A stretch of 50,240 bases of DNA, the filler included, from Sphacelaria rigidula (taxonomy: Eukaryota): the NCBI GenBank assembly GCA_964200075.2. It is 3 parts of 3 records of this genome, joined end to end, with 100 filler letters (N's around TTAATTAATTAA, not from the genome) between each part and the next. Parts side by side here need not be neighbours in the genome. Positions count along the whole stretch, not along the records: positions 33,562 to 50,240 come from CAXNAA020001278.1; 2 more parts are not named here. One strand, 5' to 3'. The position numbers were made by a program, and so were the translations under genes. Of this stretch, positions 16,972-50,240 are shown piece by piece (within the stretch, counting starts at the first letter, position 1; each line of letters begins with the position of its first letter). Under the pieces are notes generated by a model. That model saw only the letters and a list, made by a program, of their open reading frames with translations, ran no database searches and had not been told where the DNA came from.

Positions 16972-17072
16972 GGCGTACTCGTGATCATGCATGCCATAGT
17001 CATAAGACCGTTGACCTCGCATCCCTACAAAACCAGGATGGAGCACGCCGGGTTTTCGCCGGACCAGGCTCG
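16972..17072 (+). repeat. Shared repeat head
   Basis: GATCATGCATGCCATAGTCATAAGACCGTTGACCTCGCATCCCTACAAAACCAGGATGGAGCACGCCGGGTTTTCGCCGGACCAGG. Confidence 0.85.
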
Positions 17073-18598: not shown

Positions 18599-20457
18599 GA
18601 GAAAGATCTGGGCCCGAATATGCAACCCCTACCGTGCAGTAGCATGACTCACCGCTGTTTGGGACGGCCGTCCATATTTCCGACAAAACGCTGCAGGTAC
18701 TCATTTTCCACCTTACCAACCACTACGCTCTCATTTTTGCACTTCGAGAGTGGCGGACGGGCAGCGCCAGCAGCACTACCACCTACGGAGGCCAAGGACC
18801 CTCTGCGAGTCATACTCCACTACCCCCCAACTATGCCGAATGCGGCGGGAATCGCACAGAATCTGATCGCAGCGCTGAGATGGGTGGCGATCAGGCCAAA
18901 TTTGTGCGAAGCAAAGCGGCAGTCGGAGTGGATGATGATACAAGTGCGGGGTGGACGAGGCAGTTGCTCACGGCGAAAAGGGGACAGCGACCCGCGACGT
19001 GGATAGAGTTCGAGGCGGCAAGGCGCACCATGCTCAGTTGGGAGGGGTACAAGATTATTGCGATCCAGCGCGGCAGAGGGACGTCTGCGCCTCCTGCTTC
19101 ATCTTGATTCCCTCTGCGATTGACGCCCGTTTGATTCTTGTAGCTGTTGATTACTGATTGCTGAGTGTGTGTGTTTAGGGCCCATTCTTCTTCGCGGATG
19201 AGTTTTCTCTGCCGAGAGGTATGAATTCTTGATTCCGTGATCAGCAACGGGAATTATTTTCTTTACGTATATATGTATATATGTATATATATTGCGTCGC
19301 CACTGACGATTTGGTCAATAACAGGCCCACCACCAGAAGTGTAATAGCTTTTGCTTCATCCTTTATATTCAGGTGCAACCAAATTGGCACATACATGCCG
19401 CGAAAGCAGACGACTTCTCCCAGGGACTCTTCACTCCCAACAACGTTTTCGTGAGATTGAGAGTAGAGCGCTGATTGAGAGAGTCTTTGATCAGTCGCTT
19501 CAACTTACTCAAAAAAAATTTCCGTGTGTGCTCTTCTTGGCCTTCTGTATCATTGGCGTGTGCTTAGAGCTACACGTCGTTATGCTACTCAGGTGTATCA
19601 AGAGCCTCAGTAGCAAGCTTCTACAGAAAGCATATCGGGCCTAGCGGAGTAGCATTCCGACACTGGAACGATTCATCTACCAATCGACCGCTCTTCACTC
19701 TCAATCGTGTTTGCCGCCCTAAATCTCACGAGAACATTGTTTTCTTCAGAGGTAGTCATCGCGATAATCCGAAGGTGAAAAGCGAAGGCACTTTTGCCGC
19801 TTCCTTTCATGTCGAAGTGAACCAGGTATATTCCGTGTGCGCGTGGCACAGCCATGCCAAGAGCACGTCCCGTACACTCCATCCCTGGACAACAACAAAA
19901 ACATGGTTTACCGGTACGTACTCATCTCGAAACATAACTTGTTGACAGCTTCAATTAGAATAATACTAATAATAGCGTACGATCTTGTGAAGCGGTAGCT
20001 GGGGGCGAGCAATCGAAAAACCGTGGTTGCACAGCATGCCGAACCGCAAGCCGCCACATGTTTGCGCACTCTCAACTAACGGCGACCTCACGATATAACA
20101 CTGTTATGGATCAAAACATCTTCCCCTTAATTTTTTTTCTTGCTCGGAGGCCAATCATCGATCCTCCGACGTGGAAATCCACCAAACTCACGACCGCAAA
20201 CATTGGATACCCATTAACGAGCTCTTGACGGACACCCGATCAAAAGACGCACATTTCAACCAGACACCGAGTCATCCCTCATGACCACCGCACGGGAATA
20301 TCCAACCAACAGGCATCCTTGAAACCAAGATCGAATCCACCCCCCGAATCGGACGTCTCATCAAGACGTCACTTGACCGTCTGGCATATCACGGATCGGA
20401 AGCATGAGTCCCTCCCACCCCACTGGACTCCCTTTCCCTCGAAGAACGAAAAACGGC

Positions 20458-32124
<11,667 letters not shown>

Positions 32125-33376
32125 AGCTCAACCACTAACCTGCCCTGTGAGGCTCCTGTCCAAGTGAGAAGCTCGTGAGAAGTGATGTTATCATCGTGCT
32201 GGTATTCCGTATTTTTCTTTTTTATATTGATATCAGGTAAGCATGTTCAGACCTGTTTGCGGTGTTCAGCAGATCTTTATGGTAGTAGAGAAAGCGCGAT
32301 AAGTTCAACAAGAATGGCAAAATCAGAGGCATGGACACAGAATTTTATGACACCATTCTTTCATCTAAAGGACGTGATGAATCAACCAGTTTTCATGTAT
32401 CCCCCCTCACATGATAAGACGTTTCCATAATAACCAAATCACGCAGATTCCAATGGATACTGACAGTGTGATAAGTTCCCACAAGTAGATATCTCCTCTG
32501 GGTATCTGGTAGACGAACAGGCAAGGGTAGTGGGGCAGGCCTGCAGCTAGAGTGAGAGAAAAAGATAGATATATGTACGACCTCGATGGCGCTGCATTAT
32601 CTGGATGCCTCTTGGCATCGTTGCTGAATGAAGCAGTGTCTCCGTACGCCGGTCCTGACCAACGAGCGGTGGGTGTCTTAATCGTCCTGCCCAGACGAGT
32701 TGGTGCAAACAGCACGACAGTAACACTATTTATGGTATATTCACGAAGGAACAGCCAACGCGGAAGGTACAGCAGTTTTCTCGTACTGATGTTGGTGTGT
32801 GCACTTAGCCGTAGTTTAAGAGAGGACGATGGACTGCTACCGATATTGGGATAGGATATACGAGGAACATATTGCAGTGAAGTCAGCATTGCAGTATGCT
32901 ACTCTCTCGATGTACTCGTAGTCGTCAGCTGTTGTAAATCGACTGACAGCTGCCTGAAGATTCGAATGTCCCACCCAGCCGCTCGGTGCTTGCGGCACAA
33001 CTCTCGAATAATACAGTACGGTCTTGCGCGAAAATAAAAAAATACATATCGGAATGCCCGCCCAGTATTTGTGACTGCCCGCACTTGGCCCGCACACAAA
33101 GGTCACTTTTACACGGAAACTCTGATTTTGCATTTCTCGACCGTGGGTACAGTCACCACCATGAAACTTGGTGCACTAGTTGGACACAACACAGGTAGTA
33201 TGTGCACCAAGTTTCAGCTCCTTTCGGCCAACTAGCAAATCAAACCAAGCAAATACCGATGTACCGTCGATAGGCCCTCAAAACGGCTATCTCGAGCCCA
33301 CCATGCTGCATACCCATACCCTACAGCACTGCAGACCGTCAGGATGGATCAACCCCAGACTCGAGTGATGGCTCGA

Positions 33377-33461
33377 GGGGGTGTATTTATGATCATGCAT
33401 ACCATAGTCATAAGACCATTGACCTCGCATCTCTACAAAGCCGGGACGGAGCACACCGGGT
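33377..33461 (+). repeat. Shared repeat head, truncated by the gap
   Basis: Near-identical to 16972-17052. Confidence 0.85.
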
Positions 33462-33561
33462 NNNNNNNNNNNNNNNNNNNNNNNNNNNNNNNNNNNNNNN
33501 NNNNNTTAATTAATTAANNNNNNNNNNNNNNNNNNNNNNNNNNNNNNNNNNNNNNNNNNNN
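33462..33561. other. Assembly gap with TTAATTAATTAA linker
   Basis: Same linker as 16682-16781. Confidence 0.97.
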
Positions 33562-33635
33562 AGATCGCTCCGGGAATCGAACCCCCCAACTCAACCATCA
33601 GAAGGTTACGAGGTTACCAACTGAGCCACACAATG
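33562..33635 (-). mobile_element. tRNA-derived SINE head / tRNA pseudogene
   Basis: Minus strand TGGCTCAGTTGGT (A box) ... AACC-TTCTGAT-GGTT anticodon-like arm (CTG) ... GGTTCGATTCCC (B box); no acceptor-stem pairing; runs into the gap. Confidence 0.7.
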
Positions 33636-35515
33636 CGACGTAAAAAGGACTTCAGCGACGTGCAGCTTTGTACTACCTGCACTGTCCATGGGGGTGGACG
33701 CAACTCGGTTGCCCACCACACCACGCAGTTCCGTCGCTGATCCCTACCATGAGAGGAGATGCGCAAGTTTTCGCCAACAAAAAAATAAGCAAAGCACACC
33801 CGACTACTGCAGTGTATATATATCCCTGGGCTCAACTCGTGCTCTATCCTGCAAAGTTGCGGTGGTAGCTAAGAATGAGTTGGATGGAGTTTGCATGGTC
33901 CTGTGGACAGGTATTATCTGGCGTGGTGGTCTGTAAGATAGGAGTCAACTGCCGCTTCGTTCCTTTCGACCGCATGTTTTCGATCGAAAGCGATTGTTTT
34001 TCACCTCGACCTATTCTTCTCCGCGCGCCGCTAATTATAATTTGGAGTTGAAGCCTTCTAGGAACATGAATGCGGTGGATTTATCAGACCGGCAAAAAAT
34101 AATCGACCGCACTTTTTCGATCGGAAATAAAAGGTGCTGAGACACGCCTCGACCGTGGTTTTTGAACGAAGAGTGGAGATGCCATTGGTGATTCGAAGAG
34201 TTAGGCCGATTCTTCCGGTTCGTTTTCTCCCCCCGTTTTTTGCAACAAATTATGAGAAAGAAAGACCGCTAGGAAAATACTATGAGAGGTGTTAGCCCTA
34301 GCTCATCGTCGCAGATACATTTTTGAGCGAGGTGTGGTACCAAAAGAGTGGGGAGGTACCAAAAGTACGGTCAGCGGGATTCAAAGGGGTGTGCACGCCA
34401 AGGCGAGGTACAACGACCTGAAGACTTCGCCATGCCAAGCTTCCTGTGTTTGTGTAAGAAGACGTGAAACATAGGCTTCCCCGATCGCTGCTGGCCCAGC
34501 TAGCACTGTGTGCAAACTGACATATTCAATCTATATTGCCGTATCCCGTGTGCGGCAGTACAGACAGTAGTACTGTACTGTCTATTACTCTGTCCTGCAC
34601 TCCTCCACATCATTTTTAGTGCAGCCGTTGTATATTACCGTCTCCAACCTGACATGTGCGCATGTATACTTCCGTATGCGGCAGGTAGAACAGGCAGTAT
34701 CGTACAGCTTAGTTATGTCTGTACTGCACGTTGCCCACAGCATTTTTAATGCAGCCGCTGTACTACTATACTGGCAAACTAACATTTCCATCCTACTGTA
34801 CTACTGTTGAATGCGGCAGTACAAGCCATGCACTGTCTGCACTACACGTCGTCCGAATCATTTCCGACAGTCGCTGGGTGCAGCATGGCATGTGGACCCT
34901 ACTGTTCAATGCGGCAGTGTAGACAGTATACTACTGCCTGGTGTTGTCTGTATTGCACGTTATCCACATATTTCACGTTGTACGCATCATCTTTACTACA
35001 ACCGTACGTACTACGGTTGCGTGAAAACTGACACCTACAACTCACTGCATAAGACAGCACAGACAGTATCCTGTGACCTCTGCGCTGGGTACTGTCTGTG
35101 CTGCAGGTTTTCGAGAGCACGGTCGATGCCAATAGATCATCAACCCTTGGCGACATCTCGTGCACGCCGGGATGGCGAAGCAAATTTCAGTGTAGTGTGC
35201 AAACGGCGCTGGGGATGTTCGACATTGATGTCAGAAGAGCCCCGCAGATGTCGAAGGGCACAAACATATTCAGGGCTGGCGGGCGTTGCTAGTCTCGCCG
35301 CGCCGCGAATGAAAAAAACGAGAGAAAGATACAAGTCGATATCGTCTCGTACTTTAAAAAAAGGCAAGCCAGGAGGGCCCATGTCGTAAAATTTCCCTCG
35401 TCTTGTATTTTGTTTCCGAGAATCTTGTGGAAAAAACGAACCGTAAGTAGCAATCTTGTATTTTTCCGTCGTTATTTGCAAAATGAGGGGAAAAAACGAA
35501 CGAGATGAATCGGCC

Positions 35516-36056
35516 TTGGGCGCTGAAATTTTGACACGACATTTTTATCATCAACCTGCGCAACCCTATTGGGGGTACAGAGTACAAAGGAAAAAACAGA
35601 CAAACATGAAGTTAGAGCGAGTTAAAGTTTTAGCAGAAACATGGAAAATGCTATAACTTCCTTGAAAAATGACAAAAACGACAACACTCCAGCACATACG
35701 GACACTCGCGTCAACGACATTCTGGTAAAGTTTCGGCCCCAAATACTTCAAATTGGGCGCGGCATCGCACTTTTCGTGTGACACGGCCGCGCCCATGTAA
35801 TTCACGGGATCCATGAGACTCCAATTAGGAGGTCATGAGTTCAAATCCCGACATATCCTCTCATGTTTTCGTCCGTCGTTAAGGTTATATCATGCAGTAC
35901 ATTTTTTCAGTGATTTTTCTTTATTCAGCGGCGATGCCGTGTGTTACCAGGTTCGTCTGCACTTCACAGCGATATGCTCAATTCGCGCTTATGTGGAAAA
36001 CTTGAGAAGTCTAGGTGTGGTAGGCGCATGCGGGATTTACTGCTATCCCAGCTCGT
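35516..36056 (+). repeat. ~540-bp dispersed repeat (inverted copy at 45333-45851)
   Basis: For example TTCAGCGGCGATGCCGTGTGTTACCAGGTT.GTCTGCACTTCACAGCGATATGCTC is shared in opposite orientation. Confidence 0.85.
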
Positions 36057-36897
36057 ATGGACACTGGAGCAAGTTCAAACAACAACAGCTTCGCTCATTC
36101 ATGGATGGACAGTGCACAACAGTGTCTGAATATTGCTGGCGAAGTAGTCTTTCTGCTCGCCAGTGGACGTCTCCCTACGAATAACACAGTGATGCAGCAG
36201 TTGACACCAAGGCTCGCAAGCTCCATACCATTGTCGATTACGCTTACTATATTCGAAAGTGACCGCGGGTCAGATACGTTCCGGCCCGGGTACAGCAACC
36301 GCAACCTACACGGCGGTCCGCGCATGAAGACTGCCACGCAAATGTCGCGAAACATGCTCGCTGCTTGCGCCTTCAAACACGAATACAAGTGCAAGATGGG
36401 TTGCAACTACGTGGCACGAGTCCCCCAGCAACACAAGAATCGACTGCATTCGTCGAAAGTTACCCGGGTCAACGGGATATCCCCCGCCCCCCCCGTTGTC
36501 CCCCTAAACGTTTTTCGTTGTGCACATACACGGTACATGTCGCCTGCCAGCGCACGAACGTGTTTGGCACCTGAAGAACTCGCCTTCAAACCGACGCGGC
36601 ACACAGTGGCAACATACGGATTGAAGAGAGATTTACGTGGTTTCGTTGAAAATTTCGGGCCCGGAAAGGGGGTTCGTAGGAGGTCGGGGTTGGTCACTTC
36701 CAATCCTGATGTTCCCCCTGGGAGACCCCAATTTCCTCAACATCGGAGAGACTCATGTGAGCGAAACTCAGATCCGTGGGGACGGTTTTGCGGTCTCACA
36801 GGTTTGTGAAATAGTTCTATAAACAGTAATTTCCTGTATGAGGGTGGTATCGCGTACTCGTGAAGCGGAAGAGCAGGCAGGCGGTGGATAAGATCTC

Positions 36898-37478
36898 CAA
36901 GGTTGTGTTCTGTAGGGTAAGGTTTTCTGTATACCCGGGGTATTTTTCCGGGTATTTACCGTACCTGACAGTTCTGGGACTCCTGTAAGACTTTCATACC
37001 GATACCCGACAGTTTTGTAATATGTCCTGAAAACTTGCATACCCTTACCCGATAGTTCTGTAGTCTCTGTAAGACTCCCGCACCGTTACCGGGGGGCACC
37101 GGTACGCTCTGGGTGAGATACCCGATTGCGGGTATGGTTTTCTGTGCAACCTCCGTACCCGACCCGAGGGATTCTGTGAGTTCTGTACGCCTTCCATACC
37201 CTTACCCGACAGTTCTGTGAGTTCTGCACAGAATATTTATTCGTACCCGGAGCGCGGGAATGCTTTTGAAGAAATACCCGATTGCAGGTACGGTTTTCCT
37301 CTAAGCCTCCCATACCGTACCCGACAAGTTCTAAAGTTTATGTTGGACTTTCAAACCGGTACCAGACATTTGTGTGATTCCTGTGAGACTTTCATACCGG
37401 TACCCGACATTGCCGTAAGTTCTGTAAGGAATCTCATACCCCACAGAACATGCCCGTACCCTACAGAACACAACCTTG
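36898..37478. mobile_element. hAT-like MITE with ACCG.TACCCGACAGTTCTGT internal repeats
   Basis: TIR CAAGGTTGTGTTCTGTAGGGTA / TACCCTACAGAACACAACCTTG; related fragments at ~3820-3975, ~41800-42136 and ~43365-43815. Confidence 0.85.
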
Positions 37479-38101
37479 GAATAATCCTTCGAGTACAGTG
37501 TCGTGCCGTGGTACCCTAGGGTGATGAAGTACAGTGCAGGACACGCCATCATTGCAGTATACGATAATGCCGGGTGGTAACACATGATGCACAGTCGGTA
37601 TTGCGAGAACAGTAAACAGTGCGCGAGAAGAGCTCAGTAGTGCCATACATCATCCTGAGAGTACAGCGACGACAGAGATGAGGATAGTACAGTACCACTC
37701 ATTACGGTGATATGTGCGACAGCGCAGTGCAGCATGAAATGTTGCCATCGCCATAGGATACGACGTTAGCACTTCTTATCCGCTTGTCGAACCCAGTGCG
37801 AAGCTTCGCCAGCAGCTGGCGTGGGCAGGCACAGCTTGCGCTGTCACGAGACTGTCTGCTGCTGCGGTTGGAAGAATATCAAAAGCCTGTTATCCTATTC
37901 CTGTACGTCACTGCACGTACGTCACTCCCTACAGATTGGGGAGACCTTAACGTTCCCTCGATTTTGGCGAAAATGGAGGGAAATCGTTCTCGAATGGAGA
38001 CTTCCCGACTTTCACTTCCCTGATCAGGTTCGTATTGAAGTCCGTAACATGCGTTTCCCTATTGGAGGTTTGTTGCCTTAAAATTTGTCTCCGCGAGGTG
38101 T

Positions 38102-38171
38102 GTTCACCACTTGTTGGATGAATAAGTTTATCGGAAACATACTATTTCGAGCTAACGCTAACCCTAACCCT
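38102..38171 (+). mobile_element. Left end of a telomere-repeat-bearing MITE (third copy)
   Basis: GTTCACCACTTG...GAAAC resembles the 30624 TIR and is followed by CTAACGCTAACCCTAACCCT. Confidence 0.65.
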
Positions 38172-41100
38172 CAGGGCCAATCTTGACGAAGGGGGCTATC
38201 CCCTTTTTCGCAATCCCTTTTGCCAGGGAATTGGTCCCATAACGACCAGTTCTGAGTCCTAGCGAGGAGCAGTTTTGTACAGACTGGACGCCAGATCTGC
38301 TCGTAGGGTAAAAAATACCGCGGGTCTGCATGTGGGCGTTAGTCCGAGGTTTGTGTAATACTGCAGACAAGACGCAACGAGGCAACACGATACCTACACA
38401 CCCAGCCCCGAAAAAACACGCACAGAGACCCACTACTCACGCGCATTAGTTCCACTGCTAGCCCTTGCTAATCTACACACGGCAGGCTTTGTTTGACGGC
38501 AATCCGGTCTGTATTGGACGAATGTCCGCTACGTGCGTGTCACAAACAACCGAAAACGTGTCGTTGCTAACCGTTTTGTGGGCGTGTGCTGTGCGCGCGT
38601 CTCACACAAATCAACATTTGTCGGTGAATTCTGAACAGATTTGATCAAGGTCACGCATAACGTGCACAGCTGATGAGCAGCTACGGCTCGAGCAATGAAA
38701 ACAATAAATCCGTCTGAAGGGATGGATGTACGCCACGCGCCGGCCACTGCGCGGTACAGCACGCGTTGTGACTGTCTGCTGTGTTTCTTCATTTTCTCGT
38801 TTTCTCCGTTTTTCCTGTTTCATCCAGTTGTTGCCTGTATCAATGAATCGTCGGAAGATGAGGTCGAGCGTAGAAATCAGCTCGACCCTTTCGGGACTGA
38901 AGCTCAGTGACAAGAGGTTCACCATGTAGTGGTAAAATAATGATGAACAAGTCTAGGAGCTACCTGCTCAATCATGGTGAGGCGAAAGTTATCGACCACA
39001 TCCGAGCGACCAGTGGCGGGGCTGTCGCCGGGAGTGACGTCACTGCCAAGTTGGTGTGTGTACCCTGTCCCTCGCCCACGAAAAAGCCTTCGAAGCAAAA
39101 TAAAGCCCAAGTGGTCGGGGCACGGTTTCTCGATTTTTTGTCATTTACTTGCATTTTATATAGGTCCGACCTCCACTCCTCCGTTTTTTTTGGTGTCACC
39201 ATCCTTTAGTAAACCCTAGTTGATTACACTTACACATAGTGCTGGGGGGAAACTCGGGAAAAATTGTACCCTACTATGTATATGTGGTCATGTTCACAAG
39301 GCGACTAAATCTAGCAATGCTGTGGGATGAGAGACGGAGCTAGAGGCATGAGTTCTGCGATATTCCTCTGTCGAAGCGGTACAAGCGGCGATGAGGTCGT
39401 ATGTAATCGACGGGAACGAACAAGCTGTGTATAGGCAGCTGATCTCCGTTGCGGAGAACTGCCTAGGACATGTGAGAGAGTATGCAGCCGCAGCTGCTGC
39501 TACATTCGAAGAGGCGTACTGTACTGTATCTGCGGCGCAACGCCCACGCCGTTCGAAGAGAATCTGCCGCTTGCAACGAGAAGGGAAATCGCGGCCCACC
39601 CCGACCACAAAGGGCCGCGTGGCGAGGTGATGGGGACAATATCCAAGGCCACAAGTGGCGGGCGGCGGCTGTAACATTCTGTCGAAAGCTCTCCACGGCG
39701 ACTCATACTGCTTGACACATCTATACATTACCTGATGCACGCAACACCCGGATGATAGTACAGGCAGTTTGTACCTGCACCTGGAAATAGATGGGATGAA
39801 ACTTTGGGAACTTGAGACTTACACCGCTTTTGCGTTTGTTTTTTCGCGACCCAAACATGCACCACTTTTTCGAGTGCCATCTGCTCCACCCTAAATGAAC
39901 GTCGACTCGTCTGTCGCTGTGACCCACTCGATATTATATGCAGCTGGCATGTGGCGAGTTTTCACCACTGTCGACATTTATACCATTTCAAGACGTCGAT
40001 TTTCCACCACGGGCATTACGCACTGCCGTTCTGGGGGAGGTACACGACTGAACCGCCCCATCGAAATATGTTATTTTGACCCGCAACGTGCACCTTCGAC
40101 AAACAAAGCACGTCTTTTCACCCGAGAATGCTTTGAAAGGTCTTACCGTGCGACTTTTCCGTTGTCGTGAGAAGTGGTCTGATGCCGTCAAACAAGGCCT
40201 GGCATCGGTAGCTGAGCAAGGGTGGGCCTTGGGGTTGTTGCACTGGTTCCCTCCATTCGTGGGTTCTACATCGAACGTGTTTCTCTTCGCATGTTAACCG
40301 CAGATTAGAAACATGGCCTGGAACCACACATCGCTCGGATATTATGTGAAACGGAACGATCAGCGCCGTCACCAGTCTTTTTCATCTGCACTTGCCTTTA
40401 GCTGTCAACAAAGGGTAACGTTTGTTTCATATGAAGCTGTGCATCGAAGGGGAGGCAAAAATGTGATGTGCCAAAAAACTCTGTGGCGAAAATGCCGTTT
40501 TTCATTCTTGTCATGAAATACCTAGGACATTGTTGCGTCGCCCCGGTAATCTCGTGATGAATGCTATGCCCACCGAGCAGCGAGTGAAGAACCAAGGGCT
40601 ACCTACCCCTGGAAAGGTACTGAAGTCGTCACTACACCGTCAGTGTAGCATCATCCCGCTGGGTGTCCAGTGAATGGAAATGTGGTGCGCTACACAAGCG
40701 ATGCAGAATAGCGCTCATTTTCCTTTTTTGCGGCTTAATCGTGCCCCTCAAAACCCCAACGTTGTTACAGTATTTGTAAGTTCCTCATAGGGGAAAATGG
40801 AGATGAAATGTGAAAATGAAGCCGAGCGTGCTGTAATCTCTTTGTGCGCATGAGAGTGCAGGGTATTGGCAACTCGACTTGGGGGTTCCCAACCGAATTG
40901 CTTCGATTTCGTTCTCATTTTAACATGGAATACGTGAGGCAAAGGTTCTCACAGCAAGGACAAGCAAATAGATACGTCACGTGCCTTATGTTATGCGTGA
41001 GGGATCACTGTCCAGATAAGCTCCAAGGACATGAGTACCCGCAAAGCTGTCGTGGCTGCAAGCCGCCCCGACCAAGACGCGGTAGAGTACAACCCTCATG

Positions 41101-42269
41101 GTTACATGAGATGAGTGCGCATCGGCCTTGTAGTGTGAAGATGTAGGAAATGCCTACACTGCACACATCTTTCATGGTGGGGTATGTCGATCCACGGATG
41201 GAACACGGAAAAAGGAAGAGGTTTGTTGGGGAGTGCGATCAGAGGCAGGGTCTGATCACCGGTTTGCTGTTGTTTTGTCGGGTGCAACTATTGGCATGTT
41301 GTAAACAGTCGCCAAGGCTAAGCAGACAGACATGGACAGGCAGAAGAAAGAGGCTAGTGGCGTTTGTACCTCTTGCTCACTCTGAGTTTGTACATGTTTT
41401 TTTCGCATGTTTGAATCATGATCCCATACGAATGATAGAGGCGGGTTCACGCTTATCTCCCATGCGTTCATCGGCAGAACTTCTCGATTTGTTTTTGGAG
41501 GTAGAATTCGAAACTTGGCACAAATGTAGTATGTGTTATCACGAAACGTTTGATGGATGAGATTATTGTACTTTTCATTTTATACAGGTTGTCGAGGTCC
41601 CAGGGTTCTCTCCGTGATTCTTCCCCTTTTCCACCCCATGTGACCCCCGAAAGCCGGCGAAAATAGCTCAAAAGTCAAGCAACGTCGTCTTTCACAAGTT
41701 TGGAATGACGCATGGTACATGTGTAGAACGTTTCGGTCTCACTGCATAAAATTGCGTAAAATTTAGCGCCTTCCTGGTATAAGGTTTTCAAACGTCCTGT
41801 TTTGTAGGGTACGGGTATTCTCAGTAGCGCAGGAGATTCTTTCAAAAACTTGGGGAACTGTCGGGTACCGGTGTGAAAGCCTGACAAAACTCACAGGATC
41901 TGTCCAGTACAGGATGAAGTTGATGCAAAAATGCGTATCCGCAACCGGGTATATTTACAAGATTCTACCCGGAGCCCGGGTGAGGGTAGAGATAACGTTC
42001 TGAACGTACACAATTGCCGGGTATCGGTATGGAAAGCTTGCAGAAGGCACAGAACCTTTCGGGTACGGTACACCCGGGTGAACAAAACTCGTACCATACA
42101 ATACAGAGGCTTGAATTGTGCCGAAACCGTACCTTGATGCATCAAGGCATGGTTTTAGCGCATAGTTGCGTTGACGTTCGGTCTTGGTCCTTTCCTCCCC
42201 CCCCCCCTCCCCTAGCTGGTCCGGTGAAAACCAGGCGTGGTCCGTCCCGGCTCTGTACGGGGGGGGGGC

Positions 42270-43321
42270 GCCAATGGGGTCAGCGTCGGTTGGTGATGAC
42301 GCTGTAAAACATGCCACTAACTGCATGAGCTAGGTATTCAGGTTGCCGATTTATTTGCGCACTTGCTTTTTTCGGCGGTGTCCATGTTGGTGGTCGAGCT
42401 GGATCATATTGTGCGGAGTGGGAGAACCTCAACTCCGCGCAAAGAGGGTTATCGTACTACGTAGTGTTTATAGGGTGAGACACCCATCAGACAGTGTATA
42501 AGTAGTGACTCTCTGGAAGAGGCGATACCAGAAAATGAAGCAACTTATTGCAGGCTGTCATCCATATGCGAGATAAGCAGTATGCCTCGGGCGCAACAAG
42601 CTTAGTAGGATGCAGCTCACCCTTCATGCGACTCGCCGAAAACACCACGTTGCTTTGCGCTTGTTGATTGGTTGCTAGTGAGTCTGGCGAAAACTCGGCG
42701 TGCTCCGTCCCGGCTTTGTTTAGGTGCGAGATTAATGGCCATATGACTTGTGGCATGCAACATCATGAGTGCCTCCCTTGCCCTCCCTTTCCCCCCCAAA
42801 TTCCCCTCCATTTTGGGTGCTTGGCGGCGGTTGGCAACGATGCTGTAAAACATGCCACTCACTGCATAAGCTAGGCCAACAAGTTACAGCACCGGGTTTT
42901 GTTCTCTGGCTTACGTTTTTTCGCGGGGAGCATGGTTGCGGTTGAGCTAGATCGTATGGCGCAGGGTGGGAGAGCCTCAACTCCGCGCATTGGGAATGAT
43001 GGTACTACGTAGTGCTTTGATGTGGAGACACCCATGGAGGCAGTGAAAATCGTGGCTATCTCTTGAAGTGGCGACACCAGAAAATGAAGCAACCTGTCGT
43101 AGGCTGTCAGCCACGTTGAAACAATAAGTACGCTTCGGACCAAATTGTTTGGTAGAGCGCAGCTCACTCCTCATGCGACTCGCCGAGCACATGACGGCGC
43201 TTTGCGCTTGGTGATCGACTGCGAGACTGGTCCGACGAAAACCCGACGTGCTCCGTTCCGACTTTGTAGGGATGCGAGGTCAAAAGTCTTATGACTACGG
43301 CATGCAAGATCATGAATACCC
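42270..43321 (-). repeat. Two tandem ~550-bp copies of the shared-head element
   Basis: Parallel landmarks about 545 bp apart (GCTGTAAAACATGCCACT at 42301/42842; ACCAGAAAATGAAGCAAC at 42527/43076; TCATGCGACTCGCCGA at 42624/43171). Confidence 0.85.
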
Positions 43322-43819
43322 TGCTGTAGATGACACTGAGGACGGTTGAGAGAAAAGGATAACTCCGAAGTTTTCTGTAGGGTCCAGGTTTTTCGGTAGG
43401 GTACAAGCTTTCTCACAGAACTTACAGAACGGTCGGATACTGGTTTGGGAGTCTTGCAGAACCTGCAGAACCTGTCAGGTTCCGGTACGCAATTCTTGCG
43501 GAGCTTACAGAAACTGTCGAGTACGGTATGAAGATGATACGGAAACCCGGACCCGCAACCGGGTGTATCTAGAAGGGTGTCCCTGTGACCCGGGTAAGGG
43601 TAAACATTCCGTAGATGTATATCAATGTCGCGGGAGGCATCAGAATGGAGGTCGTACAGGAACCCGTACCTGCCACCGGATATCTCTACAAGGGTATACC
43701 TGTGCCCTGAGTAAGGGTGAGCATTTGACACAGATGTCACAAAGGTGTCGGGTACCGGTGTGGGAGGAGGCCGGAACTCACATAACTATCGGGTACAGAT
43801 ACGAATGGCTTACAGAACT

Positions 43820-44695
43820 CAAGGCACGTCGGGTAGGGTACGTACATTTGAATACTCGGGCAAAATACCCGAGTATTCACTCTACCCAACTTCTGGGGAA
43901 ATTGGGTACGGCCTCAATACCCCACCCAATTTTTGGGTAGTTTGGGTAGTTTTGATGCGGCCTAAAATACTCTGCCCAGTATAGGGTAAGTACTGTCAGT
44001 AATGCTCGAGTGAAGAGTATCACTTGAGTATGACCTCAATACTCTACCCATTTTTGGGTAGATTGAGTGTAACCTCGAATACTCCACCGATTATTGGGTA
44101 AGTACTGTCAGTAATACTTGAGTAAAGAGTATCACTTGGGTATGACTTCAAATCTCTACCCATTTTGGGGTAGATTGACTACGACCTCAAATGCTCCACC
44201 CAATATTGGGTAAGTACTGTCAGTAATACTTGAGTAAAGAGTATCACTTGGGTATGACCTCAACACTCTACCCGAATTCTGGGTAGATTGATTGCGACCT
44301 CAAATACTCTCACAAATAATGGGAAATTACTGTCAGTAATACTTGAGTAAAGAGTATCACGTGGGTATGACCTCAACACTCTACCCGAATTTTGGGTGGA
44401 TTGAGTGCGACCTCAAATTCTCTACCCTATATTGCGTAAGTACTGTCAGTAATACGAAGAGTATCACTTGGGTATAACCGTAACACTCTACCCAACATTT
44501 GGGTAGATTGGTTACGACCTCAAATACTCTACCCGAGATTGGGTAAGTACTGTCAGTAATACTTGAGTAAAGAGTATCACTTGGGTATGACTTCAAATCT
44601 CTACCCGAATTTTGGGTAGATTGACTACGACCTCAAATGCTCCACCTAATATTGGGCAAGTAATACTTGAGTTAAAGAGTATCACTTGGGTATGA
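43820..44695. repeat. ~112-bp minisatellite inside a CAAGG-ended element (left part)
   Basis: TACTGTCAGTAAT at 43991, 44103, 44215, 44328, 44441, 44548; the unit includes GAGTATCACTTGGGTATGACCTCAA..CTCTACCC..TTTTGGGTAG. Confidence 0.92.
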
Positions 44696-45332
44696 TAAGT
44701 AACGGTGACCGCCGGCGACTTCGTGACGTCACTTCGCAGGCTATGTTGAATACATAGGCAAACAGTGGCCATCAACGAGATGAATGACGTCACATCACAG
44801 GCTACCGCAAATTCTAATGGCACCCAGGGGGCGGGAATAAGGATCCACCCAGAACTTGTCATCGGTCGTATACTACCAATAGAGGAGTTACAGACACCGA
44901 CGGACCCTGAGCCAGCTTCTTTCATTCGAGGGCTCGAGCACAGCTGCACGTGTGGTGAAATAAAAGCACTACGCCGACCGCACCACTGCCGCGAAATGCG
45001 AGCCTGCCTTCAGACCCGCCTGCAAATGACTGCACTGCGTACTTCGAAATGTATCGTACCGCCTGTGCTTGTAACGTAGTACAGACTGCTGTAGTGTTGG
45101 AAAATACTACTGCATCCTGTACTCTACTGTACTTCACAGGTAACTGCTGTTCAAGTCGTCAAGTTTGCATCGTAACTAGCTACATATTCTGTGTACTCTA
45201 CTGCACTACTATTGTACTACTGTACCATATACGGTGAAGCTGTATGCTGTGGGTCCGTCACGCTGTCTGCTGTTGATGTAAATATTTACTGTTCACAGTT
45301 CACCTTTGATATGTATTGTTCCCATATACAGC

Positions 45333-45900
45333 ACGAGCTGGGTCAGCAGTAAATTCCGCATTCGCTTTCCACACCACAACTTCTCAAGTTTTCCACATAA
45401 GCGCGACTAGAGCATATCGCTGTGAAGTGCAGACCAACCTGGTAACACACGGCATCGCCGCTGAATGAAGAAAAAAATGAAAAACATTGTACTGCATAAT
45501 TTATAACCTTTACGACGGACGAAAACAAATATTATCTGTCGGGATTCAAGCTCATGACCTTCATAATTGGAGTCTCCGGTATCACTCGAATTAAAGAGGC
45601 GCGGCCGTGCCACACGAGAAGTGCGACGCCGCGCCCGATTTGAGGTATTTTTGGCCGAACCTTCACGAAGATGTCGTTGACGCGAGTGCCCGTATGTGTT
45701 GTAGCGTTATCGTCGTTTTTATATTTTCAAGAAAGTTACAGCATCTGTTTTTGCTGAAACTTCAACTCGCTGTGACTTCCTGTTTTGTTTTGTTTTTCCC
45801 CTGCACAACACGGGTTTGATGTTCAAAATGTCGTGTAATAAATTCAGTGCCTATCTCTTCGAATTACGAATGACATCTCCACTCTTCGTTGAAAAATCAT
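45333..45900 (-). repeat. Inverted copy of 35516-36056 joined directly to the homologue of 34155-34206
   Basis: Reverse complement matches both segments, without the ~1.3 kb that separates them in the other copy. Confidence 0.8.
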
Positions 45901-45930
45901 TGTCAGCTGGCCCTGCTCGTAGTGCCAGAT

Positions 45931-46394
45931 GATGAAAAAAGCTCAGCACGTTATTTCCATCCGGTTTCGCAGCTGGACCGCTGTGACCGGACGGAGTAGA
46001 ACCGCGCGCTCTAGGCGTCGCACGGCGCGTGTTCTCTGTCTGCTCACCATGTGATTCTCAGCAGGGAGGGTAAACAGTTCGTGATCGGTAATGCCGATGA
46101 AAACAACTGCGCCCACAGAGCCGATGTTGAGCGGGCAGGGTGAACAGCTCGCGGTAGGTGATCAGATAAACACAGCCGCACGCGCAGGGTTGATGCTCAG
46201 CTGGCATGGTAACAGCTCGGGATCGGTAATGCAGATGAACACAGCCGAACGTACAGAGCTGATGCTCAGCGGAAAGGGTGAGCAAGTAGAAATTAGGCGG
46301 TGTGCGACCGCTAGAGCGCGCGGTTCCACTCCGTCCGGTCACAGCGGTCCAGCTGTGAAACAAGACGAAAATAAGGTACTGAGGTTTTTTCATC
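45931..46394. mobile_element. MITE with ~118-bp inverted arms and ~69-bp internal tandem repeats
   Basis: CAGCTGGACCGCTGTGACCGGACGGAGT.GAACCGCGCGCTCTAG and its inverse; AACAG(T/C)TCG at 46073, 46143, 46211. Confidence 0.88.
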
Positions 46395-46552
46395 GTCCAG
46401 TCGTATTTTATATGGGAACAATATTCATGAGAAATTAATCATGAACAGCACATATGTTCAACAAGAGTAGACAGCGTAGCGGATCCACAACATACAGCTT
46501 AAGCGCCCACGGTTCTGTAGAATGATGATATCGTGCAGCACTTGGGTGCTTT

Positions 46553-46861
46553 TATCACTTGGGTATGACCGCAATACTCTACTCAAAGTTTGGGTAGATG
46601 GACAGCTGACAACGACCTTGAATACTCTGCCTAAATATCGGGTAAGCGCTCTCAGCGATACCTGGGTATAATGTATCACTTGAGTATGACCTCAATGCTC
46701 TACCCAAATTTTGATTAGATTGAGTGTGACCTCAAATACTCTACCCAAATTTTGGGTGAATTGGGTACGACCTAAAAAACTCCACCCGAATTTTGAGTAC
46801 TGAGAGTATAACTTTTCAAAAATACCGACTATTGGGTATTACTCTACACCACCCGCCCTTG
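46553..46861. repeat. Right part of the 112-bp-repeat element
   Basis: Resumes TATCACTTGGGTATGACC... units and ends CCCTTG, inverse to CAAGG at 43820. Confidence 0.75.
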
Positions 46862-47034
46862 CAAAAATGCTAGCTTTTAGAACAGATCCTTGAAGTTTTG
46901 CGTACCTGGTGCAAACTACGAACTACTTGGTTTTAGGAATATGACATCTTTTCGGAGACGGTGAACGTTTCAACCAGAGAAAATTGTATAAGGTCTTCGA
47001 GTTACGCAACGGAACATTGCACAAATGTTCCAAA

Positions 47035-48014
47035 CCCTGGACAATACAATATGCAATATGTATATATATATATATATATATGTGTATATATCTTGCCCGC
47101 TCAATACGTCGACGCGTCGGGTGATCAATATATATTGGGTGAGCAATATGATGGCACGAGAGAGGGTCAATATATATTGTGCCATCAATATGTCAAGGCT
47201 CACGACATACAATATATATCGACCGAACATATATCACGACATGCGCCGCCTCAATATATATTGGCCGAGTAATATGTTGGTGCGAGAAGCCACCAATATA
47301 TATTTGTCGAGTAATATACTAGCTGCCACACGAGATCAATATATATATATATATATATATTGATTCAATATACTCAACACTCGAAGCGCCAATATATGTT
47401 GCCGCCCCAATATGTTGTGCGTCAATGCGTCCAATATATATTGGGCGGATAGAACACAAGGGAACCGACGGTCACAAGACATATTTGTGTAGCAATATAT
47501 TTTTGTTTTCAACATGAATATTGGAAAGTGTATTGGAATTGGTATGGTGGGCAGTTCCATGTTCGCGGGCGCCATTCAAAGATGTATCACCACATGCCGA
47601 AAACGCTCAAGGAGTTCCTCCGCAAGCGTGTTCAATATATATTGGCTGCACAATAACTATGCGATGAGCGTGCGCAACATATATTGGAAAAACAACACTT
47701 CTGCATGGTTTGCGTTCAATATATATTATGGTAACAATATGCTACGCATCGCTTCGACTCGATATATATTGACACTTCAATACATACACGGCCGACACGC
47801 ACAATATGTGTTGAATGTTTTTTTCCTGGAGCAAAATGCATGTCCAATGTATATTGTCATACATTACTTCATGATCATGGCACGAGCACTATATGTTGTT
47901 GCTTCAATATCCCTGAGGACATCTCGACACAATATATATTAAAAGGACGATATTTGTGCTGGCTCCAATGCGAAGTGTTGGTATAAATATTGGAACATAT
48001 TGTATTGTCCAGGG
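47035..48014. mobile_element. Non-autonomous TIR element carrying two phased 42-43-bp repeat-spacer arrays
   Basis: Perfect 20-bp inverted repeat ACCCTGGACAATACAATATG (47034-47053 / 47996-48015); CAATATATATTG-like motifs at 47126, 47168, 47210, 47252, 47294, 47337, 47390, 47432 and 47633, 47675, 47717, 47760, 47802, 47845, 47887, 47930. Confidence 0.85.
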
Positions 48015-50240
48015 TATAAGCAACACAGCCCTGGTGACCACAGGGGTACCAAAAGGGGCATATCGACCCGCGTTTTCTGTCATCGTGATGTTTAGCCAAG
48101 ATATATTAATTACATGCTGGGAAGGAGATGGGCGGCCCCGCACCGGTGGCCAGATGGGTGTCAGGAGGCATATATTCCGCGTCGCCTCTTCTGTCACTAT
48201 AATTTCCGACCAGTGTATGTACATGTATTATTTCTCAATTTTCACCACGTTTGCCGAGTTTTCTCTGGCGGCAAGGCATCTCATCACTTTCTTTCTTTTG
48301 CAGTGCACGAAGAAGGTGCAGCGATACATTACGTTTCAGGTTTGTGTGTCATCTGATACCTATGGCGCGTGTTCTGGCCATCGAAAGTCGCCCACATTGG
48401 CTCTATATCGCGGGGTGTCGATCCCGGACCACAAAAGCCTCCTCAAGTTCATGAAAAACTTCGAGCAGCAGGATGATTGTTGGCAGGATATTTTCCCCCC
48501 GTCTTTCCCTTTGCCGGGTTCTCGTTCATTTGGGAGGACGAACACACCGGTTGTGCCGCCAATGTCACGAGAATATGAGAGCAATGCAGTTGGAAGCAAT
48601 TGATCATTGCCTCGGCCTTGGTCAGCAGCAAACACCAGACCGTGCGACGAGTCGTTGACGAGTTGAACAAGGTACACACGTAGACAAACGTCCCCACTGT
48701 GGGTCACGTGTGTAGGACCAGCAAAGGGGGGTGCCAAAATCCCCGTGATCATGCAACCCGTAACACAGAGTTCCCTCAAAGGATGCACCTGTGAAGTACA
48801 GGCGCAGGGATGTCCCTGTGTCAGGGTTGACAGGTTTGTCCTTGTGACGGGGATGGCAGGGAAAATCATACGAGTACGCACCTCATGTATCTTTCGACGG
48901 CTTAGTAATGTATTTTCAGTATAAGTCAAGCGTTACGTTGCTTGTGGATTTCTCCGCCGTGTCTGAACGAAGCAGCCTGAATATTGGCACAGAGGTACAC
49001 CATAACACAGACAGCATATTCCCGGATCGGCGGCACGTTTTACGTGGTGCGCCAGACGCACGAAGTGAATACGGATTCTGGGCAATGCCATCGATACGCC
49101 CTCAAAACGGAGTCTCCTCGGCCCACACTGTGTGAGACGTCAGTGGATGCATATATAGACGCGCAGATGCGCTCACTTCCACAACATGACCTGCTGGGTG
49201 GCTCTTGCCCCGGCAAATAAGGGCCTTTATTATCGAGAGATGAAGAAATGGGAGAAGGTCTATAATTTCTGCAATCGCCTGGGGCTCGTTATCTCGTATC
49301 CAGACCTACTTTGCTGTTAGATATCTCATTACAGATGGTGCTGGTCTCGTCGTTTAGCTTGCCTTCGCCAGCAAAATATTGGACAGGGTTATGCTACCTG
49401 CCCGTGTATGGCGTGCATAACTGGGAAACACCTTTCTCACAAACTCTCTGTGACACAGGGGGACAGGCGGACAGGCTAGGGCGTGATCGACCGACTCTCT
49501 CGGGATGCTGCAGCATCACACATGAGTAAAAATACCGACTGTAGAAAGCCCCGTGCATAGATTGCAGTATGGTTGCTTTCTGTGAGCTGTATGCGCAGAT
49601 ACACCAAATAAAACCACCAGCTATATACTTTTCAGACGGTGCGGTAGCGTACACTCGTAGCAGCACTGCAGGCAAGTAGGTAGCTACTGGATTGTTTCTG
49701 CTCTTCACTTCGAAAGTGCGCATGTCTGCAAATGACGACCACCGTGCTTGGCCCCAACAGCTCCAACAGCGCTGTCGGGGCACACACCGTCAAAGGATAT
49801 AGGTACCGCCAACCCGCGGTGCTTTTTACTCTACGACGTAGCCCAGGATGTCATTAGCAAGGTCCCTGATTATTCTTGCTTGCTTGCGAGCGCCACGGCG
49901 TCCGCCAAGGGCAGCTCTGCGGAGTATTGCGCTGCGATCCGAAATATTTGACGTTCGCCAAACGTGAAGGCTTGGCGAAAAAATCTAGTCGCTTCGTTTT
50001 CAGAGAACGCCAAGCGCCAGGTGCGAAAATGCCTAAAATCTTTGCGATCTCCCAAAAAGCTGTGTACTGTGTCGATAATAACGGCCCTACCCTGGCCTTA
50101 CATACAAGCATCGATCCGTATTGGGCACACTCTGGATAATGACATTTCCGCGGTACCTATCGTGGTATCGCCTGTAGAGGTACTCACTTCAGGAGGCACG
50201 GTCGTGCAAGCGATGTCAGTGCTTTTACGCGCATTGTATA

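What the first reader, a model, noticed from the sequence alone, without database searches (positions are those of the whole stretch)
47035..48014. CRISPR/TIGR-like phased repeat-spacer arrays inside a TIR-bounded element
Seen: two arrays (about 9 and 8 units, same orientation) with a 42-43-bp period. Most units are a 12-bp palindrome CAATATATATTG + a 6-nt variable segment + CAATA(T/C)N-type 7-mer + a 17-18-nt variable segment, e.g. caatatatattg-ggtgag-caatatg-atggcacgagagagggt; caatatatattg-tgccat-caatatg-tcaaggctcacgacata; caatatatattg-gccgag-taatatg-ttggtgcgagaagccac. The variable parts look unrelated between units while motif and spacing are kept, unlike an ordinary decaying minisatellite. 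Each array is followed by a similar tail (GAC.ATATTTGTG...AATATTGGAA), and the whole is bounded by a 20-bp TIR that itself contains CAATATG. Known: two conserved motifs alternating with two variable spacers is the layout of prokaryotic TIGR guide arrays, and phased subterminal motifs are transposase-binding sites in CACTA/EnSpm elements. Inference: either a helically phased (4 turns) protein-binding lattice under selection, or a transposon-borne guide-RNA-like array. No associated protein gene is visible.
Basis: partly seen in the sequence, partly recalled or inferred. Interest (0 to 1): 0.75.

Follow-up and report, generated by a model that had tools for sequence, protein, structure and literature searches.

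The report
High-copy transposon-like repeat with phased palindromes
This is one worn copy of a very abundant, non-coding mobile-element-like repeat in an algal-type eukaryotic genome, and its evenly spaced palindromes are most likely docking sites for the protein that once moved it, not a CRISPR-like guide array.

Summary
A perfect 20-nt inverted repeat (47034-47053 / 47996-48015) encloses two direct arrays, 8-9 and 8 units, of 42-43 bp. Each unit has the 12-bp palindrome CAATATATATTG. Most also have a third CAATAT half-site 6 bp downstream. Palindromes are 88% alike between units; the spacers are 27% alike against a null of 25%.

About 5,000-5,900 contigs per public DNA run align to the element, spacers included. 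Nine read-through ORFs from other copies are colinear with it. Between copies, palindromes and spacers decay alike (49% vs 50% amino-acid identity). No Nop or Cas-like protein, box C/D motif or prokaryotic context was found.

The same half-site stands at the inner edge of both inverted repeats. It is 42-fold enriched in the element.

Best reading: a non-autonomous DNA-transposon-type repeat whose interior is a reiterated, helically phased binding lattice. Selection acted on the master element, not on the copies.

Still open: family homology continues at least 200 bp past the right inverted repeat, no target-site duplication is visible, and the superfamily and autonomous partner are unknown.

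The parts
47034..47053 (+). Left inverted repeat, ACCCTGGA + CAATA + CAATATG. It holds the CAATAT half-site at its inner end.
   Evidence: I8, 20 nt, 100%; 2 matches, 0 of 100 shuffles.
47054..47096 (+). A third CAATATG half-site (47054-47060) running into an (AT)n microsatellite. Alignments of public contigs break here.
   Evidence: 47056-47091, period 2; reads cut at 47051-47096.
47084..47473 (+). Array A: one degenerate unit plus 8 units of 42-43 bp. Each is a 12-bp palindrome, 6 nt, a CAATATG-type motif and 17 nt. The unit at 47337 has its palindrome stretched by (AT)n.
47474..47632 (+). Tail of array A and the linker between the arrays. It holds isolated half-sites at 47493 and 47518 but no phased units.
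47633..47971 (+). Array B: 8 units of 42-43 bp in the same orientation as array A. More of its cores are hit by point changes in this copy.
47972..47995 (+). Tail of array B, with a half-site at 47987 on the minus strand, abutting the right inverted repeat.
47996..48015 (-). Right inverted repeat, a perfect complement of 47034-47053.
   Evidence: I8.
48016..48222 (+). Stretch beyond the right inverted repeat that is still part of the repeated family in other copies. Its true right end is not determined.
   Evidence: summed depth stays at 11,000-35,000 in X1; contigs span 47852-48150, 47615-48065 and 47890-48197. P0003 reaches 48060 and P0011 reaches 48222.

Best explanation
The locus is one decayed copy of a very abundant, non-coding, DNA-transposon-type interspersed repeat of a eukaryotic (by run labels, algal) nuclear genome.

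Its interior is a reiterated recognition motif. Sixteen 12-bp palindromes, each two inverted CAATAT half-sites, sit every 42-43 bp, about four helical turns apart. Most are followed 6 bp later by a third half-site. The same half-site stands two to three times at the inner edge of each inverted repeat.

Proposed mechanism (inferred): a dimeric DNA-binding protein of the unknown autonomous partner, either the transposase itself or an accessory protein, binds the palindromes. The phasing puts the bound dimers on one face of the helix, so they can assemble cooperatively and bring the two ends together.

Proposed history: the arrays grew by tandem duplication, and a 3-unit trace remains. In the master element, selection then kept the cores and the spacing while the spacers drifted to near randomness. 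That fixed arrangement was copied on the order of a thousand times. The copies have since decayed neutrally.

Shown: the anatomy, the core/spacer contrast, the enrichment of the half-site and its presence in the inverted repeats, the high copy number, the colinearity of other copies, and the even decay between copies.

Inferred: protein binding, the identity of the binder, the role in transposition, and the element's superfamily.
For: Anatomy and contrast
- Core identity is 88% and spacer identity 27.2% (null 25.2 +/- 0.8%). Core columns carry 1.1-2.0 bits and spacer columns 0.6 bits or less.
- Unit length is 42 or 43 in 13 of 14 within-array intervals. The one exception (53) is an (AT)n expansion inside a core.

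Link to the element's ends
- 33 of the window's 72 CAATAT half-sites lie in these 982 bp: 33.6 per kb against 0.79 per kb elsewhere.
- Half-sites occur in both inverted repeats, at 47047, 47054, 47987 and 47997.

Mobile, high-copy family
- 4,970, 5,618 and 5,856 contigs of three DNA-like runs align at 80% or more. The left flank has 1-4 contigs.
- In X1, summed depth is 2,600-38,000 inside, against 27-57 at 46850-46996.

Fixed spacers
- Contigs of 240-450 nt align across several units at about 81-86% (table 8).
- 9 of 10 hits of a library-wide phmmer search are read-through ORFs of other copies. They are colinear with 47390-48222.

Majority of the family versus this copy
- The majority has better cores than this copy: 47398 G>A, 47889 C>A and 47941 A>G restore core letters. 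47949 G>A restores motif 2. A loose-end consensus restores the core at 47802.

Neutral decay after insertion
- Between-copy amino-acid identity is 86/176 (49%) for the core, 31/68 for spacer 1, 32/81 for motif 2, 123/246 (50%) for spacer 2 and 208/399 (52%) outside.

Origin by duplication
- Spacer identity at lag 3 is 84/227 (37%) against 24-30% at the other lags.

Precedent
- Tandem repeats inside the ends of the foldback element Galileo carry extra transposase (THAP) binding sites (passage in PMC4079207 citing Marzo et al. 2013).
Against: - No target-site duplication is recognisable at either candidate pair of ends (my reading of the flanks).
- The family does not stop at the right inverted repeat. 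Depth and several bridging contigs continue to at least 48197, and one ORF copy to 48222. No pile of loose ends at 48015 appears among the 24 loose-end rows listed of 1,748.
- The left inverted repeat itself could not be seen in other copies, because alignments break in the adjoining (AT)n. Its status as a family terminus therefore rests on the depth step and on 5 contigs of one run that diverge after 47031.
- Both arrays point the same way instead of mirroring each other, as transposon ends usually do.
- No transposase or any autonomous partner was found. No whole genome was available.
- Protein binding is untested.
- The between-copy comparison rests on only 9 ORF-bearing copies at the amino-acid level.
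- The fit of all cores to one helical face holds at 10.6 bp per turn (R 0.91) but not at 10.5 (R 0.39), and it was chosen after the fact.
Confidence: 0.6

Rival explanations
1. The element has the same binding lattice but a different vehicle. It is a rolling-circle (Helentron-associated, HINE/DINE-1-like) or otherwise composite repeat. In that case the 20-nt inverted repeats are subterminal, the arrays are its 'central repeats', and the true 3' end lies to the right of 48015.
For: - Family homology continues past the right inverted repeat.
- The left boundary suggested by 5 diverging contigs is 47031/47032, 2 nt outside the left inverted repeat. HINE subTIRs lie 2-4 nt from the 5' end (PMC4067079, passages).
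- A short palindrome (48030-48046, 5-bp stem) follows the right inverted repeat (my reading).
- Summed depth falls about 3-fold after roughly 48075.
- HINEs can carry central tandem repeats making up about half their length.
Against: - HINE subTIRs are 12-15 bp and lie 38-60 bp from the 3' end. The elements insert in TT and have runs of T at their borders. Here the repeat is 20 nt, the extension is at least 180-200 bp, and the left border reads CC|AAACCC with no T run.
- Folding 47990-48230 as DNA gives no unusual structure (z +0.73).
- No Rep/helicase was found among the 150 ORFs scanned.
Confidence: 0.17
2. A neutrally decayed minisatellite inside an old repeat. The palindromes survive by chance or by mutational bias (A/T-only cores escape C-to-T decay) and bind nothing.
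For: - Tandem-duplication ancestry is visible: lag-3 identity is 37% and TRF finds 2.3 copies at 75%.
- Transitions dominate the differences from other copies, e.g. G>A at 32 and T>C at 20 of 128 places in X1.
- One core has grown into an (AT)n microsatellite.
Against: - Spacers also contain 45% A/T, yet no spacer column exceeds 0.6 bits, while core columns carry 1.1-2.0 bits. A base-specific bias cannot erase A/T positions in spacers and spare them in cores.
- Spacer sequence is near saturation, yet unit length stays at 42-43.
- The motif recurs in both inverted repeats, outside the arrays.
Confidence: 0.08
3. A lattice used by the host. The dispersed copies would serve as arrays of sites for a host transcription factor or chromatin protein, or as nucleosome-phasing signals, and would be kept for that reason.
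For: - AT palindromes recur regularly in spacers of 55% G+C.
- Four units add up to 168-170 bp (arithmetic).
- The element is present among the contigs of a run guessed to be RNA. The tool warns that this does not show transcription.
Against: - Between copies, cores are no better kept than spacers: 49% vs 50%.
- This copy has lost perfect cores at 11 of 16 units.
- No host factor is known for the motif. A full-text search for the 12-mer found 0 papers.
Confidence: 0.06
4. A guide-RNA array (TIGR- or CRISPR-like) carried by a transposon. Units would be transcribed and cut into RNAs of about 42 nt whose two variable segments pair with targets.
For: - The layout of two conserved motifs alternating with two variable segments of fixed length is real.
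- Spacers are near random relative to each other.
Against: - Spacers and their order are the same in the other copies examined.
- No Nop, Cas, TnpB/Fanzor or any other family was found among 150 ORFs, apart from peptidase M24 and TGS exons in other pieces of the window.
- Box C is absent and the box D word occurs once in the arrays (motifs recalled).
- No Rfam family matches.
- Spacers do not match anything else in the window.
- Unit and spacer lengths differ from TIGR.
- The core-pair pattern is absent from viral contigs, and in prokaryote genomes it occurs only as two single pairs, not arrays.
Confidence: 0.02

Closest known systems
Foldback-type DNA transposons with tandem repeats inside their ends (Galileo; Tetris)
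   Same: Non-coding copies with inverted ends. Internal tandem repeats reiterate part of the end sequence. In Galileo the repeats carry extra transposase (THAP) binding sites, thought to raise transposition efficiency (PMC4079207, passages).
   Different: In those elements the repeats lie within long inverted arms and so mirror each other. Units are 100-220 bp and are similar along their whole length. Here both arrays are direct, units are 42-43 bp, and only 12 + 6 nt of each unit is kept.
En/Spm (CACTA) subterminal repeats bound by TnpA (recalled; no paper was read for it)
   Same: A short motif, including inverted pairs, is reiterated many times in the subterminal regions of autonomous and non-autonomous copies. 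It is bound by an element-encoded protein that helps bring the ends together.
   Different: The ends here do not start with CACTA and no 3-bp duplication is seen. As I recall it, CACTA motifs are irregularly spaced and in both orientations. Here the spacing is strict.
Helentron-associated interspersed elements (HINE / DINE-1)
   Same: Very abundant and non-coding, with subterminal inverted repeats a few nt from the 5' end, central tandem repeats or microsatellites, and sequence continuing beyond the 3' inverted repeat (PMC4067079, passages).
   Different: The inverted repeat is 20 nt, not 12-15. The extension is at least 180 bp, not 38-60. There is no TT target or T runs, and no clear 3' hairpin.
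Plasmid F centromere sopC
   Same: Twelve direct repeats of 43 bp, each carrying a 16-bp inverted-repeat motif bound by SopB (PMC3177203, abstract seen in the listing). Period and logic are almost the same: a palindromic dimer site once per roughly 4 helical turns.
   Different: sopC is bacterial, single-locus and used for partition. The comparison is of architecture only, with no homology. As I recall, its 43-bp units are alike along their whole length, whereas here the spacers are unrelated.
TIGR arrays (TIGR-Tas)
   Same: Two conserved segments alternate with two variable segments in a short tandem unit (PMC12045711, passages).
   Different: TIGR arrays lie beside a Nop-domain Tas gene in phages and prokaryotes. 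They give 36-nt RNAs and have spacers of about 8-12 nt flanked by box C/D motifs. None of these features is met here, and the spacers are fixed among copies.

Membership tests
Non-autonomous TIR DNA transposon (MITE-like) | Terminal inverted repeats | tested here: met
   20 nt, 100% complementary, at 47034-47053 and 47996-48015. Whether they are truly terminal on the right is doubtful.
Non-autonomous TIR DNA transposon (MITE-like) | Target-site duplication flanking the ends | tested here: not met
   Flanks read ...GTTCCAA|A and T|ATAAGCAA. No direct repeat of 2-9 bp is evident at any of the three candidate end positions.
Non-autonomous TIR DNA transposon (MITE-like) | High copy number, dispersed, with unrelated flanks | tested here: inconclusive
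   About 5,000-5,900 aligned contigs per run and a sharp depth step on the left. The right flank is also repetitive and homologous among copies. Dispersal could not be checked because no genome is held.
Non-autonomous TIR DNA transposon (MITE-like) | No coding capacity; small size | tested here: met
   ORFs across it have no Pfam family. Library hits to the ORF over array B are only read-through ORFs of other copies. At 982 bp it is above the usual MITE size (the size limit is recalled).
CACTA / En-Spm | Ends beginning CACTA/CACTG and a 3-bp target duplication (recalled definition) | tested here: not met
   The ends begin (A)CCCTGG, and no 3-bp duplication is present.
piggyBac-like | Ends CCC...GGG with a TTAA target duplication (recalled definition) | tested here: not met
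   The ends do read CCCTGG...CCAGGG, but the flanking tetranucleotides are CAAA and TATA.
HINE / Helentron non-autonomous | [quoted passage not shown] | tested here: inconclusive
   The 5' offset of about 2 nt fits. The repeat length (20 nt), the extension of at least 180 bp, the absence of T runs and the lack of a notable hairpin do not fit.
TIGR array | Adjacent Nop-domain Tas protein | tested here: not met
   0 of 150 ORFs of 90 aa or more match a Nop family at E 0.001 or better. 5 of the window's 155 such ORFs were not sent. 3 of these 5 overlap the element, and one of them (47493-47939) was later searched against the protein library.
TIGR array | [quoted passage not shown] | tested here: not met
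   Units are 42-43 nt with spacers of 6 and 17 nt. Box C occurs 0 times and box D once in the arrays (motif letters recalled).
TIGR / CRISPR array | Spacers differ between loci or strains | tested here: not met
   Other copies align through the spacers and are colinear. Spacer identity between copies equals core identity.
CRISPR array | Repeats of about 23-47 nt, cas genes nearby, prokaryotic genome (recalled definition) | tested here: not met
   The conserved core is 12 nt. No Cas family was found. Genes in other pieces of the window are split into exons.
Satellite / minisatellite | Units alike along their whole length; copy number of units varies between loci | tested here: not met
   Only 12 + 6 of 42 positions are kept. 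Some copies show deletions, and one shows a roughly 2-unit duplication (joint 47317 to 47246 with 13 letters between). The order of units is otherwise fixed.

The most novel reading that the evidence does not exclude
The arrays are more than redundant transposase sites. They form a spacing-selected nucleoprotein scaffold: 16 palindrome-bound dimers on one face of the DNA, a eukaryotic mobile-element counterpart of plasmid centromeres such as sopC (12 x 43 bp). The scaffold would nucleate a protein filament, or would tether or partition the excised element, and this would explain the family's success. The still bolder reading, that the near-random, fixed-length spacers were once acquired rather than diverged (a fossil guide array), is not strictly excluded for the master element. 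I put that below 0.02.
Probability: 0.1. Interest if true: 0.6.

Novelty: new member of a known kind. Interest (0 to 1): 0.3.

Why it matters
A layout that looks like a guide-RNA array turns out here to be a reiterated binding motif of a mobile element. Scans for CRISPR- or TIGR-like arrays in eukaryotes should expect this false positive. A simple test separates the two: are the spacers the same in the other copies?

The element is also a clean natural example of selection on motif and spacing only. Twelve conserved bases recur every four helical turns with free sequence in between. If the binding protein were found, it would give a ready-made system for studying cooperative, phase-dependent assembly on DNA. 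As it stands it is an ordinary, if unusually regular, repeat family.

Tried and rejected
- Whole genome: none is held. Copies could not be collected, ends could not be defined, and no autonomous partner could be sought.
- Metagenome scan with the 19-mer of the inverted repeat: 5 loci, each matching over the 19 nt only and nowhere else in 46900-48700. These are chance hits.
- Viral contigs: 0 hits for the inverted repeat, for the core + motif 2 pattern and for two cores 42-43 bp apart.
- Prokaryote genomes: the two-core pattern gave 2 loci with one pair each and no array.
- The search for homologous proteins with the ORFs over array B (P0002) and over 47917-48600 (P0001): no hit at E 0.001 or better.
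- The listing of cluster members: the query could not be made. The sources and organisms of the ORF copies are therefore unknown.
- P0009 (1074 aa, repetitive) was dropped from the copy set. It has 5 short matched stretches and no tblastn match to the window.
- The empty-site test failed. The sequence that follows 47031 in 5 contigs of run X6 is not found anywhere in the window.
- RNA: no RNA holder is listed. Run X6 is only guessed to be RNA, and 154 of its contigs align. This says nothing either way on transcription or small RNAs.
- RNA folding: array A has z -4.2 and array B z -1.55. This is explained by palindromic cores pairing with each other and by the (AU)n run, and is not evidence of a structured RNA.
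- An 8-nt inverted repeat around the core at 47168 is within chance by my estimate.
- Rfam and tRNA scans: nothing.
- Earlier findings of this scan: nothing by sequence, place or words.
- Literature: 0 papers hold the 12-mer. 0 papers hold Harbinger + Myb-like + palindromic + subterminal together. This family is not claimed to be absent from repeat libraries, which I could not search.
Full report
WHAT IS THERE

The stretch 47034-48015 is framed by a perfect 20-nt inverted repeat, ACCCTGGACAATACAATATG (pair I8). The 19-mer occurs nowhere else in the window with up to 3 mismatches, and 0 of 100 shuffles gave two matches. After a 3-nt gap on one side, the match continues inward through another CAATAT(G/T)TATA.

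Inside lie two arrays in the same orientation.
- Cores resembling CAATATATATTG start at 47126, 47168, 47210, 47252, 47294, 47337, 47390 and 47432.
- A second set starts at 47633, 47675, 47717, 47760, 47802, 47845, 47887 and 47930.
- They are 42 or 43 bp apart. The one exception is the unit at 47337, where the palindrome itself has grown into an (AT)n run.
- A degenerate extra unit precedes array A at 47084.
- Of the 14 cores with one mismatch or none in the whole 50,240-base window, 13 are here.

HOW UNUSUAL THE UNITS ARE

I put the 16 units in register and measured conservation.

| Part of unit | Information per column | Mean pairwise identity |
|---|---|---|
| Core (12 nt) | 1.1-2.0 bits | 88% |
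| Second motif, offsets 19-24 (CAATAT) | 0.7-1.1 bits | 48% |
| Spacers | 0.6 bits or less | 27.2% |

The shuffle null for spacers is 25.2 +/- 0.8%; 23 of 2000 shuffles reach the observed value.

It is not quite random, though.
- Spacers three units apart are 37% identical (84 of 227), against 24-30% at other lags.
- TRF sees 2.3 copies at 75% at 47251-47346.
- So the arrays did arise by tandem duplication, apparently in 3-unit blocks, and then diverged.

A neutral minisatellite cannot give this picture.
- The spacers hold 45% A/T, so a bias sparing A/T cannot erase them while keeping the A/T cores.
- Near-saturated spacers with an unchanged 42-43-bp length argue that spacing was selected too.

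Arrays A and B align weakly in direct orientation (score 48; shuffle maximum 30) and not in inverted orientation. Unit-by-unit, their spacers are unrelated (25%). The two 'tails' share short motifs but do not align above shuffles.

THE MOTIF BELONGS TO THE ELEMENT'S ENDS

CAATAT is the half-site of the palindrome. It is also the second motif, and it forms the inner edge of both inverted repeats.
- The left end reads CAATA-CAATATG-CAATATG.
- The right end reads CAATA-CAATATG, then 3 nt, then CAATATT.
- Of the 72 half-sites in the window, 33 lie in these 982 bp: 33.6 per kb against 0.79 per kb elsewhere.

IT IS A HIGH-COPY FAMILY WITH FIXED SPACERS

No genome is held for the window. I therefore laid the contigs of four public runs on 46850-48300 at 80% likeness or more. 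The runs carry one coded organism label and the label 'algae metagenome'.
- In the three DNA-like runs, 4,970, 5,618 and 5,856 contigs aligned.
- In X1, summed depth is 27-57 on the left flank (46850-46996; 1-4 contigs in the three DNA-like runs). From 47095 onward it is 2,600-38,000.
- The tool warns that summed depth is not a copy number. I infer only 'on the order of a thousand copies'.
- Contigs of 240-450 nt align across several units, spacers included, at about 81-86% (table 8).
- Where this copy differs from nearly all others, the majority often has the better motif. 47398 G>A, 47889 C>A and 47941 A>G restore core letters. 47949 G>A restores motif 2. 47140 T>C removes a TpG. A loose-end consensus restores the core at 47802.
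- Only 40 of 279 differing places were printed, so this is a sample.

A second, independent look used the open frame over array B (P0002), searched with phmmer against 1.84 billion representative proteins.
- It gave 10 hits.
- Nine are read-through ORFs of other copies, colinear with 47390-48222 by tblastn.
- The tenth, P0009, is a long repetitive protein with no match to the window. I dropped it.
- Across those nine copies, amino-acid identity to this copy is the same everywhere: core 86/176 (49%), spacer 1 31/68, motif 2 32/81, spacer 2 123/246 (50%), outside the units 208/399 (52%).

So the spacers are as fixed as the cores between copies, and the copies decay evenly.

WHERE THE ELEMENT ENDS

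The left edge is sharp in depth. Five contigs of one run leave the window's sequence after 47031, 2 nt outside the inverted repeat. But the left inverted repeat itself cannot be seen in other copies, because alignments break in the adjoining (AT)n.

On the right the family does not stop at 48015.
- Depth stays at 11,000-35,000 in X1.
- Contigs span 47852-48150, 47615-48065 and 47890-48197.
- Two ORF copies run to 48060 and 48222.
- A further boundary appears at 48216, where 47-53 contigs per run have heterogeneous AT-rich sequence before it.

I see no target-site duplication. The 19-mer has no third copy in the window. The fold of 47990-48230 is unremarkable. The vehicle is therefore uncertain. 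It could be a TIR transposon nested in, or co-amplified with, a neighbouring repeat. It could also be an element with subterminal inverted repeats like Helentron-associated HINEs, some of whose defining features fit and others do not.

WHAT IT IS NOT

- Rfam and tRNA scans find nothing.
- Of 150 ORFs of 90 aa or more scanned against Pfam (150 of 155; 3 of the 5 omitted overlap the element), only peptidase M24 exons (22824-26614, minus strand) and a TGS exon (12706-13317, minus strand) match. No Nop, Cas, TnpB/Fanzor or transposase family is present.
- The arrays hold no box C word and one box D word (motifs recalled).
- TIGR arrays, from passages of PMC12045711, sit beside a Nop-domain gene in phages and prokaryotes, yield 36-nt RNAs and have spacers of about 8-12 nt. 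None of this is met.
- The two-core pattern is absent from viral contigs. In prokaryote genomes it occurs only as two isolated pairs.

HOW IT MOST LIKELY WORKS

A palindrome made of two half-sites suggests a dimeric DNA-binding protein. The same half-site in the inverted repeats suggests the protein that recognises the ends: the partner's transposase or an accessory protein.

A period of 42.4 bp is four turns of 10.6 bp. At that pitch all 15 unexpanded cores of both arrays fall on one face (resultant 0.91). At 10.5 the fit over 800 bp is poor (0.39), and the pitch was fitted after the fact.

I therefore propose, as inference, a cooperative one-face assembly that helps to find and pair the ends. 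Two precedents:
- In function, the tandem repeats with extra THAP sites in Galileo (passage in PMC4079207) and, from memory, the TnpA motifs of En/Spm.
- In architecture, sopC of plasmid F: 12 x 43 bp, each with a 16-bp inverted repeat bound by SopB (abstract of PMC3177203).

VERDICT

The guide-array interpretation is rejected. The binding-lattice interpretation is supported as inference. The 'TIR-bounded' claim is only partly supported. This is a new, unusually regular member of a known kind of thing, a non-autonomous mobile repeat with reiterated binding motifs. Interest is modest.

Noticed in passing
window 16682-16781 and 33462-33561: Two 100-base linkers (44 N, TTAATTAATTAA, 44 N) divide the window into three pieces of about 16.68 kb: 1-16681, 16782-33461 and 33562-50240. 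The pieces need not be neighbours in the genome, so only 33562-50240 is true context for the element.
   Followed up: partly
window 48216-48300 and beyond: Another abundant repeat starts at about 48216. In each DNA run, 47-53 contigs have heterogeneous AT-rich sequence before it. Its depth in run X6 (guessed to be RNA) is 710, against about 20-135 over the element. A splice-acceptor-like TTTCTTTTGCAG lies at 48289-48300.
   Followed up: no
window 46553-46814 and 43879-44660: A 41-bp tandem repeat (46680-46799, 3 copies) just left of the element is 73-80% similar to a block of repeats with roughly 112-bp periodicity at 43879-44660. A separate 69-bp tandem repeat lies at 46052-46270.
   Followed up: no
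window 22824-26614 (-) and 12706-13317 (-): Exon-sized ORFs match peptidase family M24 (best E 1.7e-07) and a TGS domain (E 6.1e-05). These are intron-split eukaryotic genes in the other two pieces of the window.
   Followed up: no
window 46997-47031: The last 35 bases or so of the left flank are themselves moderately repeated (summed depth 333-950). In 5 contigs of run X6 they continue into a sequence that is not in the window. The element may therefore sit inside another repeat or transcript.
   Followed up: partly
L006 1501-1554; L007 1501-1554: Two Clostridia-type MAG contigs carry the same locus, in reverse complement of each other, with two perfect CAATATATATTG palindromes 42 bp apart around an A/T-rich stretch. 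It looks like an operator pair and has no relation to the element.
   Followed up: partly
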